A DNA stretch of 5,671 bases from a virus (taxonomy: Duplodnaviria > Heunggongvirae > Uroviricota > Caudoviricetes). A program made the translations under genes and the position numbers. The stretch lies in the IMG/VR virus record IMGVR_UViG_2703718781_000017, one strand, 5' to 3'. Position 1 is the first letter of the stretch, and each line of letters begins with the position of its first letter. Below the pieces are notes generated by a model. That model was not told where the DNA came from. It searched no databases and worked only from the letters and a program-made list of their open reading frames with translations. Below, piece by piece: positions 1 to 5,671 of this stretch.

Positions 1-407
1 TCTGGCAGCCTGAGTTCACAGATAAAACACTCTCCAGGAAACCCGGTGCGGTTCCTCCGGTAGGCGGTGGCCGTGCTGTCACACGCCCCTTTCAGGCGTT
101 CACGTTCAAAATTCAGCACCACGGCCAGATTGTCATATTCCTGTACCAGCTCCCGGCGTGCCACGCGCTCAATGTGGCGCTGTTTCAGCTCGTCGCTCAG
201 GACACCACCGGCTGCACGAAAGGCCGTGCGCCAGTCGTCAGCATCGTTTCCGTCGGCCTGCGTCAGCGCATTTTTTTCCTGCTCTGCCCGTTCAATGGCC
301 GTGACGGTCTCATCCATCAGGCGGGCGTTCTCAAGATGAGCGACTCTGGCCTTTTCCAGTTGTGCCAGTGCGGGTTGCAGATATTCAGGGATGGTGTTGT
401 CAGACAT
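1..407 (-). CDS. Hypothetical protein, N-terminal 135 codons only (gene continues past the left window edge); possibly the first gene of a divergent late-type operon
   Basis: Reverse-strand frame is open with no stop from the window edge to the ATG at complement 407..405; product begins MSDNTIPEYLQPALAQLEKARVAHLENARLMDETVTAIERAEQEKNALTQ. GAGGAG Shine-Dalgarno (complement of 415..420) lies 7 nt upstream of the ATG. Absent from the ORF track because it is truncated. Charged, helix-prone composition. Family not recognised. Confidence 0.6.
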   Translation of the reverse strand, partial: MSDNTIPEYLQPALAQLEKARVAHLENARLMDETVTAIERAEQEKNALTQADGNDADDWRTAFRAAGGVLSDELKQRHIERVARRELVQEYDNLAVVLNFERERLKGACDSTATAYRRNRTGFPGECFICELRLP

Positions 408-479
408 TTTCCGGCTCCTCGTCACTTCAGGTTAAGAAAATTGTGACGTACACCGGACAACAACACGACGCATTGCAGA

Positions 480-497
480 TGTGCCAGCCCTGACACA
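480..497 (-). promoter_or_regulatory. TGT-N12-ACA dyad, candidate activator site of a P2/P4 late-type promoter driving the reverse-strand gene
   Basis: TGT at 480..482 and ACA at 495..497 with a 12-nt spacer. The dyad centre (about 488) is ~55 bp upstream of a predicted reverse-strand start near 433, with a weak -10-like CACAAT (complement of 440..445) and the ATG at 407. This geometry matches Ogr/Delta-activated late promoters (established knowledge). A second TGT-N12-ACA lies at 442..459. The motif is short and about one chance occurrence is expected in a window this size. Confidence 0.3.
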
Positions 498-576
498 GGA
501 GACTCATCCTCAGACCGGCAAGCCAGGAAAAGGTCGCAGGAAAAACCGGCTTACTGTTTGTTTTTTTATATTTTAC

Positions 577-680
577 TGTTCACCTCTGTTCACCTTAATA
601 AAAAAGATAAGTAATACAGTAAGTTAAATGGTGAACAATCGCAGTAATGACTGTTCACCGTCTGTTCACCACTGTTCACC
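577..680. repeat. ori-like iteron cluster: six copies of the octamer TGTTCACC (five direct, one inverted)
   Basis: Exact TGTTCACC at 577..584, 587..594, 652..659, 663..670 and 673..680; inverted copy GGTGAACA at 630..637. The cluster sits in an AT-rich intergenic region with a T-run at 553..568. The same octamer recurs downstream of the primase gene (5391..5671). In P4 the alpha protein binds this type I iteron at ori and crr (established knowledge). Confidence 0.75.
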
Positions 681-682
681 CG

Positions 683-771
683 TTGATGGGCTTTTTGTGC
701 TGTTTATTACTTTTTATTTTTATTAATTCACTGAAATAAATAAGAAAAAACAATTTGTATTTCACTATAAT
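683..771 (+). promoter_or_regulatory. AT-rich candidate promoter region for the AlpA gene
   Basis: Strongly AT-rich stretch immediately right of the iterons, with a perfect TATAAT at 766..771. No convincing -35 hexamer at 17 bp spacing, so exact promoter placement is uncertain. Confidence 0.3.
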
Positions 772-958
772 TTTTTCCAGCTCCTTCCAGAGCGTTTTAA
801 AGCTATCTGGCGCTGATGTACAAAAAACGCACAGCCATTGTAAGGCTGCCGGAACAAATCCCCCCTGTTGCGTCTGCCAAAAATATTCACAAAATAAAGC
901 GCTACCCGAAGCCGGACGGACTTATCCGGTGCTGTATGGACATTAACGAGGTAGCCCG

Positions 959-1225
959 ATGCAAGCTGTTTTTTCTTCCCCGTCTCCCGCCCCTGTGACG
1001 CCACTGATGCCGCTGCCGGACATCACGCAGGAGCGTTTTTTACGTCTGCCGGAAGTGATGCACCTGTGCGGCCTGTCACGCTCGACCATCTACGAACTCA
1101 TCCGTAAGGGGGAATTTCCGCCGCAGGTGAGTCTTGGCGGTAAAAATGTGGCCTGGCTGCACTCTGAAGTCACCGCATGGATGGCCGGCCGCATTGCCGG
1201 ACGCAAACGGGGGTATGACGCATGA
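959..1225 (+). CDS. alpA: AlpA-family phage/island transcriptional regulator (helix-turn-helix, excisionase-like fold)
   Basis: Translation contains the hallmark AlpA motif [52 protein letters not shown] at 947..950 sits 8 nt upstream of the ATG at 959. An alternative start at the in-frame ATG 1007 would give the more typical ~72 aa length but lacks a Shine-Dalgarno. Stop TGA at 1223..1225. Confidence 0.85.
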
Positions 1226-1260
1226 TGATGCCCGCTCTGCAAAAACTCCCTTTTTCTGGC

Positions 1261-1290
1261 TTGCCTTTTTCCGGCATTTGCGGATATAGT
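1261..1290 (+). promoter_or_regulatory. Candidate sigma70 promoter in the leader downstream of alpA
   Basis: TTGCCT at 1261..1266, an 18-bp spacer, then TATAGT at 1285..1290. Predicted start near 1297. Sequence-only prediction. Confidence 0.3.
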
Positions 1291-1353
1291 CTTTCCGTTG
1301 CCGCAAAATCGGCAGCCGGGCGTGAGAACCCGTGTAGCTCGAAGGCGACATAT

Positions 1354-1375
1354 GACGCGCCATGCGTCTTTTTTT
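1354..1375 (+). terminator. Short hairpin plus T7 tract: candidate weak intrinsic terminator or attenuator
   Basis: GACGC (1354..1358) pairs with GCGTC (1364..1368) around a 5-nt loop, followed by seven T (1369..1375). The stem is only 5 bp. An outer pairing GCGACA (1345..1350) with TGTCGC (1377..1382) encloses the hairpin and T tract, suggesting alternative folds. It could terminate alpA transcription or a ~80 nt transcript from the 1261..1290 promoter. Confidence 0.35.
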
Positions 1376-1507
1376 GTGTCGCAATCAACGCCACAGAGCG
1401 CCAGATTATGGTGTGGCGTGTGGTTTGCCGTGCAGGTATGATCCTGTTCGCAATCGCATGTTATGCCACTGAGTCAATGGTAGCTCAGGCGGGGCAGCCT
1501 CCGGGCT

Positions 1508-1535
1508 GGCCGGTATTCTTCGAGGCCGGTATTCT
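1508..1535 (+). repeat. Perfect 12-bp tandem direct repeat GGCCGGTATTCT (period 16 bp)
   Basis: GGCCGGTATTCT at 1508..1519 and again at 1524..1535. It lies in the leader upstream of the first cassette gene and is followed by a 9-bp-stem hairpin (GCTATCGCC 1549..1557 pairing with GGCGATAGC 1576..1584) just before the ribosome-binding site of the 1615 gene. Confidence 0.8.
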
Positions 1536-1614
1536 CACCCCCGTCTGGGCTATCGCCATCGAGCGTGAGAACTCCGGCGATAGCAGTTATTTGCTACTCG
1601 AAGGAGGCTGCCTT

Positions 1615-1812
1615 ATGGCTACAACCCTTACCCCCTCACACCCTGAATTTGTCTTTGTGTTTGCGGCTGTCCGTCGCGCAGACCGTCATCCCCGTATCTG
1701 TATGCTTCGCACCGTCGCCGGTGATGAACGCAGTGCCCGCCGTTCCCTTGTCCGTGACTATGTGCTCTCCCTTGCTGCCCGTCTGCCGGTGGTGGAGGTG
1801 TCCCGTGCGTAA
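1615..1812 (+). CDS. Small hypothetical protein (65 aa), first gene of the alpA-to-primase cassette
   Basis: Strong AAGGAGG Shine-Dalgarno at 1601..1607 sits 7 nt before the ATG at 1615; stop TAA at 1810..1812. Product is [65 protein letters not shown]. Small proteins in this position of P4-like islands are often annotated as Icd-like, but I cannot confirm homology from sequence alone. The ORF-track version 1222..1812 would cross the promoter and terminator-like leader features and is unlikely to be translated in full. Confidence 0.6.
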
Positions 1813-2092
1813 TAAAAAAGCCCCTCAGACCGTCTCAGCGCGTCATGACGCCCGTGAACACCTCAGCATTGAGGCTTACCATAAGCTCAACCGCGCCAGC
1901 GCCGTATCCCAGTTTGTTGGGGGTGATTTGATTCACCGTGAACTCTCCGGCCTGCATCAGCTCTACATTCCGCATATTTTCAGCTACCTGAATGAAGATA
2001 TTGATTTTGTGCTGAATGAACTGAAAGCCAAAGGCCTGTGCCGCGATTTTCTCGCCCAGCAGAAAGACCGGGGAGACAGGACGCATGTTTGA
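1805..2092 (+). CDS. Hypothetical protein (~95 aa), probable GTG start, translationally coupled to the upstream gene
   Basis: GGAGG at 1794..1798 sits 6 nt upstream of GTG at 1805, which overlaps the TAA stop of the previous gene. The frame stays open to TGA at 2090..2092 and contains no in-frame ATG after 1805. The only ATG-initiated version (1565) would overlap the 1615 gene out of frame for 240 nt. Product is [95 protein letters not shown]. Confidence 0.5.
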
Positions 2093-2540
2093 TTTTCCCC
2101 AGCCCGGTGAGATTTACCGTTCTGCCGGTTTTCCCGATGTGGCCGTGGTCGGCATTCTGGAAGACGGTATTCCGTGGGAAATGCCGTACCGCTGCCCGGA
2201 AATTGTCTGGAACCCGTACCGCCGTAAATTCAGTATCCTTGTGCGTATCCTCGCTGACGGACGCACCACAGACATCCCGCTGGGGCGTTTTCTGCGGGAA
2301 TTTACCTGTGACCGTCCTGACCTGTTTAAACGCAGCCCCGTAAACCGGCATGCGGTACTGAAAGAAATGGCCGGAGACCCGGAATTACAGAAATGGCGGG
2401 AAAAATATCTGGATATTTACCCGCAGGACACTGTTCCGGTCAGCCGGGCAGCACCGGTGGCGCGGGAATGGCGGGAAATTCCCCGCACGGAGCCTGACCC
2501 GGAAACCACCCCGGATAACAGTTACCGCAATTATCTGTAA
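2085..2540 (+). CDS. Hypothetical protein (151 aa)
   Basis: ATG at 2085 overlaps the stop of the previous gene by 8 nt (ATGTTTGA), with GGAGA at 2071..2075 upstream. Clean 151-codon frame ending TAA at 2538..2540. Product begins [63 protein letters not shown]. No domain recognised by eye. Confidence 0.65.
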   Translation: MFDFPQPGEIYRSAGFPDVAVVGILEDGIPWEMPYRCPEIVWNPYRRKFSILVRILADGRTTDIPLGRFLREFTCDRPDLFKRSPVNRHAVLKEMAGDPELQKWREKYLDIYPQDTVPVSRAAPVAREWREIPRTEPDPETTPDNSYRNYL

Positions 2541-2568
2541 TTAAAAAACGACCCCCGAAAAATTAAAT

Positions 2569-2608
2569 GTGCGTATTCGCGCAGGGATACGCACGTCTTC
2601 AGGAGACG
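2569..2608 (+). promoter_or_regulatory. Tandem hairpins or inverted repeats in the intergenic gap between the 151-aa and 63-aa genes
   Basis: GTGCGTAT (2569..2576) pairs with ATACGCAC (2587..2594) around a 10-nt loop; immediately after, CGTCT (2594..2598) pairs with AGACG (2604..2608) around a 5-nt loop. No U tract follows, so this is not a canonical terminator. Candidate operator, RNA processing site or internal regulatory element. Confidence 0.35.
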
Positions 2609-2675
2609 CAGATATACCTTATCAGTTAATGCAACCGGCACGGAATGCAGTCATCTGTCACAGGGAGAAAAGCAA

Positions 2676-2867
2676 ATGAAAACACCCTTACCGCCCGTCT
2701 TACGCGCTGCCCTTTACCGTCGCGCTGTCGCCTGTGCCTGGCTGACCGTGTGCGAACGTCAGCACCGCTACCCGCATCTCACCCTTGAGTCACTGGAGGC
2801 GGCCATCGCCGCTGAGCTGGAAGGCTTTTATCTGCGCCAGCACGGTGAGGAAAAGGGCGTCAGATAG
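2676..2867 (+). CDS. Small hypothetical protein (63 aa)
   Basis: GGGAG at 2663..2667 sits 8 nt upstream of the ATG at 2676; stop TAG at 2865..2867. Product is [63 protein letters not shown]. Family not recognised. Confidence 0.55.
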
Positions 2868-2890
2868 CCTGTGCCCTGCTGGAAGATTTA

Positions 2891-2995
2891 ATGGAATCCG
2901 GCCCCCTGAAGGCCGCGCCGTCGCTGTCCTTTCTCGGGCTGGTTGTGATGGATGAACTCTGTGCCCGTCACATAAAAGCGCCGGTACTGCACTGA
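2891..2995 (+). CDS. Possible 34-codon upstream ORF whose stop overlaps the primase Shine-Dalgarno (speculative)
   Basis: ATG at 2891 to TGA at 2993..2995 ([34 protein letters not shown]). The stop abuts the AAGGAG at 2995..3000 that serves the primase ATG at 3010. No good ribosome-binding site of its own. Could be a leader peptide, a coupling ORF or non-coding. Confidence 0.2.
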
Positions 2996-3009
2996 AGGAG
3001 AACAACACC

Positions 3010-5343
3010 ATGAAAATGAACGTAACCGCCACCGTCAGCCATGCGCTCGGCCACTGGCCGCGTATTCTCCCGGCGCTGGGGATTCAGGTGCTGAAAAACC
3101 GTCATCAGCCCTGTCCGGTCTGTGGCGGGAGTGACCGCTTCCGTTTTGATGACAGGGAGGGGCGCGGCACCTGGTACTGCAATCAGTGTGGTGCCGGTGA
3201 CGGCCTGAAACTGGTTGAAAAGGTGTTTGGTGTTTCCCCGTCCGACGCGGCCGCAAAGGTGGCTGCCGTGACCGGCAGCCTGCCCACGGCTGACCCGGCA
3301 GTGACGGCCGCCGCCGGCGCTGAAACAGACGCTGCCCGGAAGAACGCCGCCGCACTGGCACAAACCCTGATGGCAAAAACCCGTCCCGGAACCGGTAACG
3401 CCTACCTGACCCGCAAGGGCTTTCCCGGCCGGGAATGCCGGATGCTGACCGGCACACACAGAGCCGGTGGCGTGAGCTGGCGCGCCGGTGACCTTGTGGT
3501 GCCACTGTATGACGACAGCGGCGAACTGGTTAACCTTCAGTTAATCAGTGCTGACGGCCGTAAGCGCACCCTGAAAGGCGGACAGGTCAGGGGCACCTGT
3601 CACACCCTTGAAGGACAGAATCAGGCCGGAAAACGTCTGTGGATAGCGGAGGGATACGCGACCGCACTTACCGTACATCACCTGACCGGTGAAACGGTGA
3701 TGGTGGCGCTTTCTTCCGTGAACCTCCTTTCTCTGGCCAGCCTTGCCCGGCAGAAGCATCCGGCCTGTCAGATTGTCCTTGCCGCAGACCGTGACCTCAG
3801 CGGTGACGGCCAGAAAAAAGCCGCCGCAGCCGCAGATGCGTGTGAGGGCGTTGTTGCCCTGCCGCCGGTCTTCGGTGACTGGAATGATGCCTTCACGCAG
3901 TACGGCGGGGAGGCCACCCGTAAGGCCATTTATGATGCCATCCGGCCACCGGCTGAAAGCCCGTTCGATACCATGAGCGAAGCGGAGTTTTCCGCCATGA
4001 GTACCAGCGAAAAGGCCATGCGTATCTATGAGCATTACGGCGAGGCGCTCGCGGTCGATGCCAACGGCCAGCTTCTGTCCCGCTATGAAAATGGTGTCTG
4101 GAAGGTGCTGCCGCCACAGGACTTTGCCCGGGATGTGGCCGGGCTGTTTCAGCGTCTGCGCGCGCCGTTCTCCTCCGGGAAGGTGGCCTCCGTGGTGGAC
4201 ACCCTGAAGCTGATTATTCCGCAGCAGGAAGCCCCCTCCCGCCGCCTGATTGGCTTTCGTAACGGCGTGCTCGACACGCAGAACGGCACGTTCCACCCGC
4301 ACAGTCCGTCACACTGGATGCGCACCCTGTGCGATGTGGATTTCACCCCGCCGGTGGACGGTGAAACGCTGGAGACCCACGCCCCCGCGTTCTGGCGCTG
4401 GCTTGACCGTGCCGCCGGTGGCCGTGCGGAAAAACGCGACGTGATTCTGGCCGCACTGTTTATGGTGCTGGCAAACCGCTACGACTGGCAGCTCTTTCTG
4501 GAGGTGACCGGTCCCGGCGGCAGCGGCAAAAGTATCATGGCCGAAATAGCCACCCTGCTGGCCGGGGAGGATAACGCCACGTCGGCCACCATCGAGACGC
4601 TGGAATCCCCGCGTGAACGTGCCGCGTTAACTGGCTTCTCACTGATACGCCTGCCGGACCAGGAAAAATGGAGCGGCGACGGAGCCGGACTCAAGGCCAT
4701 CACCGGCGGCGATGCGGTGTCCGTTGACCCGAAATACCGGGATGCGTACTCCACGCATATCCCGGCGGTGATTCTGGCCGTGAACAATAACCCGATGCGC
4801 TTCACCGACCGCAGCGGCGGCGTGTCACGCCGGCGGGTGATTATTCACTTCCCGGAACAGATAGCCCCGCAGGAGCGCGACCCGCAGCTTAAGGACAAAA
4901 TCACCCGCGAGCTGGCGGTCATCGTGCGTCACCTGATGCAGAAGTTCAGCGACCCGATGCTCGCCCGGTCACTGCTTCAGTCCCAGCAGAACTCAGACGA
5001 GGCACTGAACATCAAACGGGATGCCGACCCGACGTTTGATTTTATCGGCTATCTGGAAACCCTGCCGCAGACCAGCGGCATGTATATGGGGAACGCCAGT
5101 ATCATCCCGCGTAATTACCGTAAATACCTCTATCACGCCTATCTGGCCTACATGGAGGCAAACGGCTACCGGAATGTACTCAGTCTGAAAATGTTCGGGC
5201 TGGGGCTGCCGGTGATGCTGAAGGAATACGGACTGAATTACGAGAAGCGCCATACCAAACAGGGGATACAGACCAACCTGACGCTGAAAGAGGAAAGCTA
5301 CGGCGACTGGCTGCCAAAATGTGACGACCCTGCAACAGCCTGA
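3010..5343 (+). CDS. P4 alpha-type multifunctional replication protein: primase (zinc ribbon plus Toprim), helicase with P-loop NTPase, and C-terminal origin-binding region
   Basis: 777-codon ORF with AAGGAG at 2995..3000, 9 nt before the ATG. Zinc-ribbon signature CPVCGG-x18-CNQCG (aa 35..60, nt about 3112..3189). Toprim motifs WIAEGYATAL (Glu 214, nt about 3649) and AADRDLSGDG (Asp 260 and 262, nt about 3787..3795). Walker A GPGGSGKS at aa 501..508 (nt 4510..4533). The C-terminal ~150 aa are unassigned and by analogy with P4 alpha should bind the TGTTCACC iterons. Stop TGA at 5341..5343. Confidence 0.95.
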   Translation: MKMNVTATVSHALGHWPRILPALGIQVLKNRHQPCPVCGGSDRFRFDDREGRGTWYCNQCGAGDGLKLVEKVFGVSPSDAAAKVAAVTGSLPTADPAVTAAAGAETDAARKNAAALAQTLMAKTRPGTGNAYLTRKGFPGRECRMLTGTHRAGGVSWRAGDLVVPLYDDSGELVNLQLISADGRKRTLKGGQVRGTCHTLEGQNQAGKRLWIAEGYATALTVHHLTGETVMVALSSVNLLSLASLARQKHPACQIVLAADRDLSGDGQKKAAAAADACEGVVALPPVFGDWNDAFTQYGGEATRKAIYDAIRPPAESPFDTMSEAEFSAMSTSEKAMRIYEHYGEALAVDANGQLLSRYENGVWKVLPPQDFARDVAGLFQRLRAPFSSGKVASVVDTLKLIIPQQEAPSRRLIGFRNGVLDTQNGTFHPHSPSHWMRTLCDVDFTPPVDGETLETHAPAFWRWLDRAAGGRAEKRDVILAALFMVLANRYDWQLFLEVTGPGGSGKSIMAEIATLLAGEDNATSATIETLESPRERAALTGFSLIRLPDQEKWSGDGAGLKAITGGDAVSVDPKYRDAYSTHIPAVILAVNNNPMRFTDRSGGVSRRRVIIHFPEQIAPQERDPQLKDKITRELAVIVRHLMQKFSDPMLARSLLQSQQNSDEALNIKRDADPTFDFIGYLETLPQTSGMYMGNASIIPRNYRKYLYHAYLAYMEANGYRNVLSLKMFGLGLPVMLKEYGLNYEKRHTKQGIQTNLTLKEESYGDWLPKCDDPATA

Positions 5344-5350
5344 CCCACCT

Positions 5351-5375
5351 GACCGGCATCTGCCGGTCTTTTTTT
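5351..5375 (+). terminator. Rho-independent terminator of the primase operon
   Basis: GACCGGCA (5351..5358) pairs with TGCCGGTC (5361..5368), a GC-rich hairpin, followed by seven T (5369..5375). It starts 8 nt after the primase stop codon. Confidence 0.8.
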
Positions 5376-5390
5376 ATCCCTGAATTCCCC

Positions 5391-5671
5391 GAAGGTGAAC
5401 AATCCACTGTTCACCCTTCACCGTATATTCACCCGTTATCACACTGAAATTAAAAGAGAAAAACGAAAGGTGAACAGTGTGAACAATCAAATCAAAAAAA
5501 ACTTTTTTCTTCCGGTGTGATTTCAGCACGGGAAATTAATCCCCTGCACAAGTCACACCGGCAGAATGCCGGAGGTGAAGAATCGAATGTTCACCCTTCA
5601 CCCATTATTCACCACCTATCACTATGAAATAAAATGAGAAAACAGAAAGGTGAACAGTGTGAACAGTTCTT
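5391..5671. repeat. crr-like cis replication region: two ~100 bp imperfect direct repeats spaced 180 bp apart, each carrying TGTTCACC and GGTGAACA iterons
   Basis: Unit 1 (5391..5488) and unit 2 (5571..5668) align at roughly 80 percent identity with a 180-bp offset. Exact octamers: GGTGAACA at 5394..5401, 5469..5476 and 5649..5656; TGTTCACC at 5408..5415 and 5588..5595. Degenerate copies include CTTCACC, ATTCACC, GGTGAAGA and GTGTGAACA. A GC hairpin precedes each unit (5351..5368 and 5558..5572). The window ends inside or just after unit 2. Confidence 0.75.

What the first reader, a model, noticed from the sequence alone, without database searches (positions are those of the whole stretch)
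442..497. Two TGT-N12-ACA dyads in the divergent region suggest an Ogr/Delta-type late promoter for the reverse-strand gene
The dyad at 480..497 is centred ~55 bp upstream of a plausible reverse-strand start (~433) that has a weak -10 (CACAAT) and no good -35, which is the architecture of P2/P4 late promoters activated by zinc-finger Ogr/Delta proteins. If real, the truncated gene at 1..407 heads a helper-activated late operon, analogous to P4 sid-delta-psu, divergent from the alpA-primase operon with the iterons between them. The second dyad at 442..459 could serve the opposite direction or be coincidental.
Basis: partly seen in the sequence, partly recalled or inferred. Interest (0 to 1): 0.4.

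Follow-up and report, generated by a model that had tools for sequence, protein, structure and literature searches.

The report
Known P4 satellite late promoter Psid

Summary
Both TGT-N12-ACA dyads are present at 442-459 and 480-497. Two in the 153-bp sid-proximal segment is about 40 times the chance expectation (P~0.001). Window 408-628 is 100% identical to phage P4. The reverse-strand gene is sid, which heads sid-delta-psu in P4 and in the closest prophage (99.9% identical). This is therefore the P4 late promoter Psid.

Across 90 distinct sid upstream regions (Sid 55-100% identical), the distal dyad is always present. Its distance to a CA(C/G)AAT -10 hexamer never changes, which puts the dyad centre at about -55. 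No sigma-70 promoter is detectable on that strand.

The proximal dyad is centred at about -18 and overlaps the -10 hexamer. It occurs only in the P4-type clade, whose Delta has two zinc-finger domains. It does not serve the opposite direction: the divergent PLL promoter has its own dyad at 839-856.

In this window sid is broken after codon 117 by an IS629-type end, so the operon is disrupted while the promoter is intact.

Verdict: observation confirmed, interpretation supported, already known, low interest.

The parts
1..54 (.). Terminal about 54 nt of an IS629/IS1203-type (IS3-family) insertion sequence that abuts and interrupts sid
   Evidence: Hits to IS629 ends and transposase regions in Stx phages and to IS1203-family elements on plasmids at 96.6%. 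Identity to sid of P4 and of the O145 prophage begins at window 54-56.
57..407 (-). sid (capsid size-determination scaffold), codons 1-117 of 244
   Evidence: Translation. The P4 records annotate it as the sid gene product. There is no Pfam family for Sid.
414..419 (-). Shine-Dalgarno GAGGAG of sid
   Evidence: X02534 annotates a potential Shine-Dalgarno sequence at 1497-1499, which equals window 416-418. GAGGAG is conserved in the upstream alignment.
433..433 (-). Inferred Psid transcription start (A on the minus strand)
   Evidence: Inference only: it lies 7 nt downstream of the -10 hexamer, and this start puts the distal dyad at -64..-47, as at P2 PO and PP with their annotated starts. Not measured here.
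440..445 (-). -10 hexamer CACAAT of Psid
   Evidence: CA(C/G)AAT lies at an invariant offset (+52 from the dyad start) in 90/90 unique sid upstream regions, while the hexamer-to-ATG distance varies from 27 to 33 nt. No sigma-70 -35/-10 pair is found on this strand.
442..459 (.). Proximal TGT-N12-ACA dyad, centred at -17.5; its ACA half overlaps the -10 hexamer. Probable second Delta site.
   Evidence: Present. It is perfect only in the P4-type clade (36 of 90 unique sequences). Elsewhere the hexamer is CAGAAT, so the half-site reads AGA. It co-occurs with the two-domain Delta.
457..468 (-). Block TCG(T/A)GTTGTTGT in the -35 region (-35..-24): ten of its 12 columns are invariant across all clades, and it does not match TTGACA
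   Evidence: Conservation line of the 60-sequence alignment and the sigma-70 scan.
480..497 (.). Distal TGT-N12-ACA dyad, centred at -55.5: the Ogr/Delta activator site of Psid
   Evidence: Present in 90/90 unique sid upstream regions, with TGT and ACA invariant and the centre of the spacer variable. Its spacing to the -10 hexamer is fixed. Its position matches the annotated activator sites of P2 PO and PP.
522..537 (.). Conserved block GCCAGGAAAAGGTCGC upstream of the dyad (about -89 to -104); function unknown
   Evidence: The cores ACCTTT and CTGGC are invariant or nearly so in all clades.
577..680 (.). P4 ori type-1 iterons (6 copies of TGTTCACC) between the two divergent late promoters
   Evidence: One search found 11 copies in the window against 0.27 expected. 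P4 annotates them as ori type 1 repeats.
839..856 (.). Third TGT-N12-ACA dyad: the -55 site of the divergent late promoter PLL (start inferred near 902-903, + strand)
   Evidence: TGT and ACA are invariant in all 55 distinct P4-type vis upstream regions, while 4 spacer positions vary. The inferred start lies about 390 nt upstream of the PLE -10 found at 1285-1290.
959..1225 (+). vis / orf88 (AlpA-family regulator and excisionase), first gene downstream of PLL
   Evidence: Pfam Phage_AlpA, E=7e-21. P4 annotates it as ORF88.

Best explanation
Window 408-560, read on the minus strand, is Psid, the late promoter of a P4-type phage satellite. It drives sid-delta-psu.

The promoter has a weak -10 hexamer (CACAAT, 440-445) and no usable -35, so RNA polymerase needs an activator. 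The activator is a zinc-finger protein of the Ogr/Delta family: either the helper phage's Ogr or the satellite's own Delta. It binds the distal dyad TGTGTCAGGGCTGGCACA (480-497, centred about -55) and recruits polymerase through the alpha subunit. Transcription then starts near 433, 26 nt before the sid ATG.

The proximal dyad (442-459, centred about -18, overlapping the -10) is most likely a second, P4-clade-specific Delta site used by the two-domain Delta.

Shown here: identity with P4, gene content, the invariant dyad and dyad-to-hexamer spacing, and the absence of a sigma-70 promoter.

Inferred from the literature or from memory: activator binding, the alpha-subunit contact, the exact start site and the role of the -18 site.

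In this copy an IS629-type element cuts sid after codon 117. The promoter is intact, but its transcript runs into the IS.
For: - **Identity with P4.** Window 56-1295 is 95.6% identical to P4 X51522/X02534, over the sid, ori and ORF88 annotations. Window 380-706 is identical except for 3 nt in sid and 1 nt at 629, and both dyads are identical.
- **Gene order.** P4 has sid-delta-psu downstream. The prophage in E. coli O145:H28 differs from window 56-5671 by 3 substitutions and 1 deletion, and it carries Sid (244 aa), Ogr_Delta (166 aa) and Psu.
- **Chance.** P is about 0.001 for two dyads in 153 bp.
- **Comparative footprint.** In 90 unique sid upstream regions from 148 IMG/VR loci plus the window, the distal dyad is present in 90/90. 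TGT and ACA are invariant and the spacer centre is variable. CA(C/G)AAT sits exactly 52 nt from the dyad start in 90/90, although the leader length varies.
- **Position.** The P2 RefSeq record annotates activator sites and transcription starts. The PO/PP site lies at -64..-47, the same position as the Psid dyad with +1 at 433.
- **No sigma-70 promoter.** The scan finds none on the minus strand in 380-1300. It does find PLE on the plus strand.
- **Literature.** Ogr binds inverted repeats centred at about -55 and needs a contact with the RNA polymerase alpha subunit (PMC3152322). TGT-N12-ACA is given as the P2 late-promoter consensus (PMC3931495). Ogr trans-activates P4 delta, psu and sid (PMC7552001). 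psu-delta-sid lie under one promoter, citing Reiter et al. 1998 on the sid promoter (PMC13586616).
- **Proximal site.** All 68 loci with a two-domain Delta (162-166 aa) have both dyads. Of 68 loci with a one-domain Delta (75-87 aa), 67 have only the distal dyad.
Against: - No transcript, footprint or reporter data were or could be produced here. The start at 433 is inferred from the hexamer and the -55 rule, which is partly circular.
- The primary P4 promoter papers could not be read: Dale et al. 1986, Van Bokkelen et al. 1991, Julien & Calendar 1995, Reiter et al. 1998. The statement that Delta footprints a second site at -18 in Psid is therefore my recollection, not a verified citation.
- Neither P4 GenBank record annotates the late promoters.
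- The link between the proximal dyad and the two-domain Delta is confounded by phylogeny. It amounts to essentially two clades, with one recombinant exception, L066.
- The perfect proximal dyad differs from the non-P4 state by a single base inside the -10 hexamer, so it could be a by-product.
- The perfect pattern is not itself diagnostic. None of the four P2 late promoters has a perfect TGT-N12-ACA at its annotated activator site.
- In this window the operon is disrupted, so the promoter may no longer matter to the host element.
Confidence: 0.93

Rival explanations
1. Only the distal dyad is a working activator site. On this view the proximal TGT-N12-ACA is a coincidence: a conserved TGT in the -35-region block happens to pair with the CACAAT variant of the -10 hexamer.
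For: The TGT half sits inside the TCGxGTTGTTGT block, which is conserved in all clades regardless of the dyad. The ACA half exists only because the hexamer is CACAAT rather than CAGAAT, a one-base difference. The proximal dyad has little symmetry beyond TGT/ACA, whereas the distal one is TGTGYCAG-N2-CTGRCACA. L066 combines the P4-type promoter with a one-domain Delta.
Against: I recall that Julien & Calendar 1995 reported a Delta footprint centred at -18 in Psid, and Reiter et al. 1998 describe complex control of this promoter. Neither paper could be read here. The dyad co-occurs with the two-domain Delta in 68/68 loci. Two perfect dyads in 153 bp have P of about 0.001.
Confidence: 0.2
2. Both dyads are chance matches to a short motif, and the gene is read from an ordinary constitutive promoter.
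For: The motif specifies only six bases. Two further matches in the window (1333-1350 and 5320-5337) have no evident promoter role.
Against: P is about 0.001. The distal dyad is present in 90/90 diverged relatives at a fixed distance from the -10 hexamer. No sigma-70 promoter is detected. The sequence is identical to the characterised P4 locus.
Confidence: 0.02
3. The dyads are binding sites for another satellite protein rather than for Ogr/Delta. Candidates are Vis/AlpA or the alpha replication protein at the adjacent origin.
For: The region lies next to ori and to the vis gene. From memory, Vis is reported to modulate both late promoters. A conserved block at 522-537 is unexplained.
Against: The alpha iterons are a different motif (TGTTCACC) and start at 577. 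The dyad matches the annotated activator sites of P2 late promoters in both sequence (TGTGTCAG...) and position, and P2 has neither vis nor alpha. The same motif recurs at the right distance upstream of PLL.
Confidence: 0.03

Closest known systems
Bacteriophage P4 Psid (sid-delta-psu late promoter; X51522 about 9490-9582)
   Same: It is base-for-base identical over window 408-628, including both dyads, the CACAAT hexamer, the Shine-Dalgarno sequence and the sid start. The neighbours are the same: ori iterons, PLL, vis, the CI RNA immunity region, alpha and crr.
   Different: Here sid is cut after codon 117 by an IS629-type element. The stretch upstream of PLL (window about 706-822, P4 'ori type 2 repeats') is a different allele. 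orf106 carries a frameshift.
Phage P2 late promoters PP, PO, PV, PF (Ogr-dependent)
   Same: The dyad sits at -64..-47 from the annotated start, the left half-site TGTG(T/C) is shared, and none has a -35 consensus. The literature describes activation by Ogr-family zinc-finger proteins through the RNA polymerase alpha subunit (PMC3152322).
   Different: The P2 sites are imperfect: PO/PP and PF match 5 of 6 positions (CCA instead of ACA), and PV has N11 or N14 spacing. Each P2 promoter has a single site, with no second dyad at -18. They drive structural genes rather than hijacking genes.
P4 PLL (late promoter of the vis...alpha operon)
   Same: It has a perfect TGT-N12-ACA at the same inferred distance from its start (839-856, start about 902-903) and a TGTTG motif in the -35 region. 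TGT and ACA are invariant in the P4-type clade.
   Different: It has a single dyad and faces the opposite way. It carries an upstream helper-Cox-responsive region (PMC3936717). In diverged satellites the dyad spacing appears to be N13 or N11 rather than N12.
sid promoters of diverged P4-like satellites with a one-domain Delta (75-87 aa; I recall phiR73 as being of this type)
   Same: They share the distal dyad (TGTGCCA-N4-TGCCACA), the same dyad-to-hexamer spacing, the same -35-region block, and sid followed by delta.
   Different: Their hexamer is CAGAAT, so there is no perfect proximal dyad, and their Delta has one zinc-finger domain instead of two.

Membership tests
[quoted passage not shown] | Inverted repeat of the TGT-N12-ACA type centred about 55 bp upstream of the transcription start | tested here: met
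   The dyad 480-497 is centred 55.5 bp from the inferred start at 433, the same position as at P2 PO/PP with annotated starts. The start itself is inferred, not measured.
[quoted passage not shown] | Recognisable -10 element but no functional -35 consensus (activator-dependent) | tested here: met
   CACAAT lies at -12..-7. No sigma-70 -35/-10 pair is found on the minus strand, while PLE is found on the plus strand by the same scan. The hexamer is fixed relative to the dyad in 90/90 relatives.
[quoted passage not shown] | Drives a late (morphogenesis or helper-exploitation) operon | tested here: met
   The downstream gene is sid. delta and psu follow in P4 and in the nearest prophage. In this window only sid codons 1-117 remain before the IS.
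[quoted passage not shown] | Transcription requires Ogr/Delta and its contact with the RNA polymerase alpha C-terminal domain | not testable with these tools
   Literature only (PMC3152322; PMC7552001). No expression data are available here.
Phage P4 Psid specifically | Sequence identity and synteny with the P4 sid upstream region | tested here: met
   Window 408-628 is 100% identical. The whole window is collinear with P4 from sid to crr.
Phage P4 Psid specifically | Second Delta-binding site centred near -18 (recalled from Julien & Calendar 1995 and Reiter et al. 1998) | tested here: inconclusive
   A perfect dyad is centred at -17.5 and is restricted to the clade with the two-domain Delta. 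Binding was not tested, and the primary papers were not readable.

The most novel reading that the evidence does not exclude
Promoter architecture and activator architecture may have co-evolved in P4-like satellites. Elements whose Delta is a tandem fusion of two Ogr-like zinc-finger domains carry two dyads in Psid, at -55 and -18. Elements with a one-domain Delta carry only the -55 dyad, and the two states differ by a single base in the -10 hexamer (CACAAT against CAGAAT). If real, the two-domain Delta would bridge both sites, giving the satellite an activator-promoter pair tuned to itself rather than to the helper's Ogr. This may already be covered in part by Reiter et al. 1998, which I could not read.
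Probability: 0.3. Interest if true: 0.3.

Novelty: already known. Interest (0 to 1): 0.08.

Why it matters
The finding has little importance as a discovery. Psid is one of the classic activator-dependent phage promoters, and this exact sequence occurs in 983 of 5,426 complete E. coli genomes.

It is useful in three smaller ways:
- It validates the first-stage reader, who correctly called the promoter type, the operon type and the divergent layout from raw sequence.
- Neither P4 GenBank/RefSeq record annotates Psid or PLL, so automated annotation would miss them.
- The comparative data give a clean phylogenetic footprint of the promoter: an invariant dyad and an invariant dyad-to-hexamer spacing across Sid proteins down to about 55% identity.

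The comparative data also raise a testable hint that the -18 site goes with the two-domain Delta.

Tried and rejected
- **Literature.** I tried to read the primary papers: PMID 7601839, PMC177091, PMC207153, PMC107552, PMC372931, PMC3518693 and PMC4836473. None is held. Searches for Psid/PLL text returned only secondary mentions.
- **Genome scan.** A genome-contig scan with P4 Sid returned one near-identical locus and was not informative. The first viral-contig scan returned almost only P4-identical loci. A second scan led by a diverged Sid gave the useful set.
- **IS/sid junction.** I looked for the exact junction in complete E. coli genomes and found none. I therefore could not extend leftward in the true source. 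The nearest relatives have an intact sid.
- **Promoter annotation.** I checked NC_001609 for promoter features and found none.
- **Other dyads.** The matches at 1333-1350 and 5320-5337 might have been further sites. The first lies inside the isrK/immunity RNA region and the second inside the alpha coding region, and neither has promoter context. I treated both as chance.
- **Proximal dyad serving PLL.** Rejected on distance (about 450 bp) and because PLL has its own dyad.
- **Perfect pattern in P2.** I expected the P2 promoters to show a perfect TGT-N12-ACA. They do not, so exact pattern matching is neither necessary nor sufficient for membership.

Full report
**Observation.** The window reads TGTGACGTACACCGGACA at 442-459 and TGTGCCAGCCCTGACACA at 480-497. 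Both are exact TGT-N12-ACA dyads. The whole window holds five such matches against 1.26 expected. In 20,000 dinucleotide-preserving shuffles, the 153-bp sid-proximal segment 408-560 holds two against 0.052 expected (P=0.0012). The 551-bp intergenic region holds three against 0.21 expected (P=0.0012).

**What the locus is.** Window 56-1295 matches phage P4 (X51522, NC_001609, X02534) at 95.6% identity, over the features annotated as sid, origin of replication and ORF88. A direct alignment shows that window 380-706 is identical to P4 except for three bases in sid and one at 629. Both dyads, the CACAAT hexamer and the ribosome-binding site are unchanged.
- The P4 records place delta and psu immediately after sid.
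- The rest of the window is collinear with P4:
  - six TGTTCACC origin iterons at 577-680
  - vis/orf88, an AlpA-family protein, at 959-1225
  - the immunity RNAs: Rfam c4-a1b1, isrK and C4 at 1284-1560
  - Ash/epsilon-type genes
  - the 777-aa alpha primase-helicase
  - the crr iterons at 5394-5656
- The closest complete relative is a prophage of E. coli O145:H28. It differs from window 56-5671 by three substitutions and one single-base deletion. It encodes Sid (244 aa), an Ogr_Delta protein (166 aa) and Psu in that order.

The finding therefore lies in Psid, the late promoter of a P4-type satellite.

**State of this copy.** Window 1-54 is not sid. It matches the ends of IS629/IS1203-type elements, and identity to sid begins at 54-56. 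Sid is thus cut after residue 117 of 244. No complete E. coli genome in the collection has this junction. The 55-nt stub is what a short-read contig end inside a repeat looks like; that reading is an inference. Whether the rest of sid, delta and psu survive beyond the IS cannot be told from the window.

**Comparative test of the promoter.** Two scans of IMG/VR with Sid alignments gave 155 loci with Sid 55-100% identical to P4.
- From 148 of these loci plus the window I extracted the 200 nt upstream of the sid start. This gave 90 distinct sequences.
- The distal dyad is present in 90/90, 85-91 nt before the ATG.
- In the alignment, TGT and ACA are invariant. The flanking G/C extend the motif to TGTG(N)CA-N4-TG(N)CACA, and the centre of the spacer varies freely.
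- A CA(C/G)AAT hexamer lies exactly 52 nt from the first base of the dyad in 90/90. The distance from the hexamer to the ATG varies from 27 to 33 nt.
- The dyad and hexamer therefore behave as one unit that is independent of the coding region. This is the behaviour expected of a promoter with an upstream activator site.
- A start 7 nt after the hexamer (window 433, an A) centres the dyad at -55.5.
- The sigma-70 scan finds no -35/-10 pair on that strand. It does find the constitutive early promoter PLE on the other strand.
- The -35 region (window 457-468) is a block, TCG(T/A)GTTGTTGT, in which ten of 12 columns are invariant. It does not resemble TTGACA.

**Comparison with P2.** The P2 RefSeq record annotates activator-binding sites and transcription starts for its late promoters.
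- Aligned on those starts, the PO/PP site occupies -64..-47. This is exactly where the Psid dyad falls with +1 at 433, and it begins with the same TGTGTCAG.
- None of the four P2 sites is a perfect TGT-N12-ACA. PO/PP and PF end in CCA, and PV has a different spacing.
- Psid is therefore a better match to the consensus than the helper's own promoters.
- The literature I could read states three things. Ogr binds inverted repeats centred at about -55 and needs a contact with the alpha subunit of RNA polymerase (PMC3152322). TGT-N12-ACA is the P2 late-promoter consensus (PMC3931495). Ogr trans-activates the P4 genes delta, psu and sid (PMC7552001).
- A 2026 paper cites Reiter et al. [quoted passage not shown]
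- The primary papers were not available.

**The second dyad.** The first option is wrong.
- The divergent late promoter PLL lies far away and has its own perfect dyad at 839-856. That dyad is centred about 55 bp before an inferred start at 902-903, roughly 390 nt upstream of PLE.
- TGT and ACA of the PLL dyad are invariant in all 55 distinct P4-type sequences, while four spacer positions vary.
- The proximal Psid dyad is centred at -17.5, and its ACA half is part of the -10 hexamer.
- It is perfect only in the P4-type clade (36 of 90 distinct sequences). Elsewhere the hexamer is CAGAAT and the half-site reads AGA.
- I recall, but could not verify here, that Julien and Calendar (1995) footprinted Delta at -55 in all P2 and P4 late promoters and at a second site near -18 in Psid.
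- Consistent with a Delta-specific role, all 68 loci whose Delta has two zinc-finger domains (162-166 aa) have both dyads. Of 68 loci with a one-domain Delta (75-87 aa), 67 have only the distal one; the exception is L066.
- This association rests on essentially two clades, so it is a lead and not a demonstration.

**Mechanism.** The steps below are marked as shown or inferred.
- Shown here: the element is Psid by identity and synteny; the -55 dyad and the -10 hexamer form a conserved unit; there is no -35.
- From the literature: an Ogr-family zinc-finger activator, from the helper or from the satellite, binds the dyad and recruits RNA polymerase through the alpha subunit, which turns on sid-delta-psu late in helper infection.
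- Inferred: the start at 433, the use of the -18 site by the two-domain Delta, and read-through into the IS in this copy.

**Verdict.** The element is already known, and it is identical to the type example. Interest is low.

Noticed in passing
window 1-57: The window starts inside the terminal about 54 nt of an IS629/IS1203-type element that interrupts sid after codon 117. No complete E. coli RefSeq genome has this junction. The stub length suggests that the window is a whole short-read contig ending in a repeat.
   Followed up: partly
window 839-856: A third perfect TGT-N12-ACA lies about 55 bp upstream of the inferred start of the divergent late promoter PLL (about 902-903). TGT and ACA are invariant in 55 distinct P4-type sequences while the spacer varies. 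Diverged satellites show a dyad with N13/N11 spacing at the same place.
   Followed up: partly
window about 706-822: This is the only strongly diverged stretch relative to P4 in the intergenic region. It replaces the P4 'ori type 2 repeats' (CTTTAAGTGG-like, the region where P2 Cox is reported to bind upstream of PLL) with unrelated sequence. Both alleles occur among otherwise P4-identical IMG/VR loci, which suggests a swappable helper-response cassette.
   Followed up: partly
window about 2850 (orf106 / DUF5375, 2676-2996): A single-base deletion relative to the O145:H28 prophage frameshifts orf106, leaving a 63-aa ORF instead of 106 aa. Together with the IS in sid, this suggests that the element is decaying.
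   Followed up: partly
window 522-537: The block GCCAGGAAAAGGTCGC, about 89-104 bp upstream of the inferred Psid start, has a core that is invariant or nearly so across all satellite clades examined. Nothing is annotated there, and its function is unknown (possibly a regulator site).
   Followed up: no
window 457-468: The -35 region of Psid is the block TCG(T/A)GTTGTTGT (minus strand), with ten of its 12 columns invariant; it does not match TTGACA. A similar TGTTG motif sits in the -35 region of PLL (window 866-870).
   Followed up: no
L066 (IMG/VR), sid at about 2501-3232 and the ORF after it: This looks like a natural recombinant. It has a P4-type sid and a two-dyad Psid, followed by an 81-aa one-domain Delta of the diverged type. 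It is the only exception to the association between two dyads and the two-domain Delta.
   Followed up: no
window 1284-1560: Rfam finds the P4 immunity RNA system: c4-a1b1 targets (1284-1336), isrK (1297-1374) and the C4/CI antisense RNA (1473-1560). The fourth TGT-N12-ACA (1333-1350) lies inside this region and looks coincidental.
   Followed up: partly
L005 (P2 NC_001895) 3057-3087, 10239-10266, 17555-17583: None of the annotated P2 activator-binding sites contains a perfect TGT-N12-ACA. An exact-pattern search would therefore miss the helper's own late promoters while finding the satellite's.
   Followed up: yes
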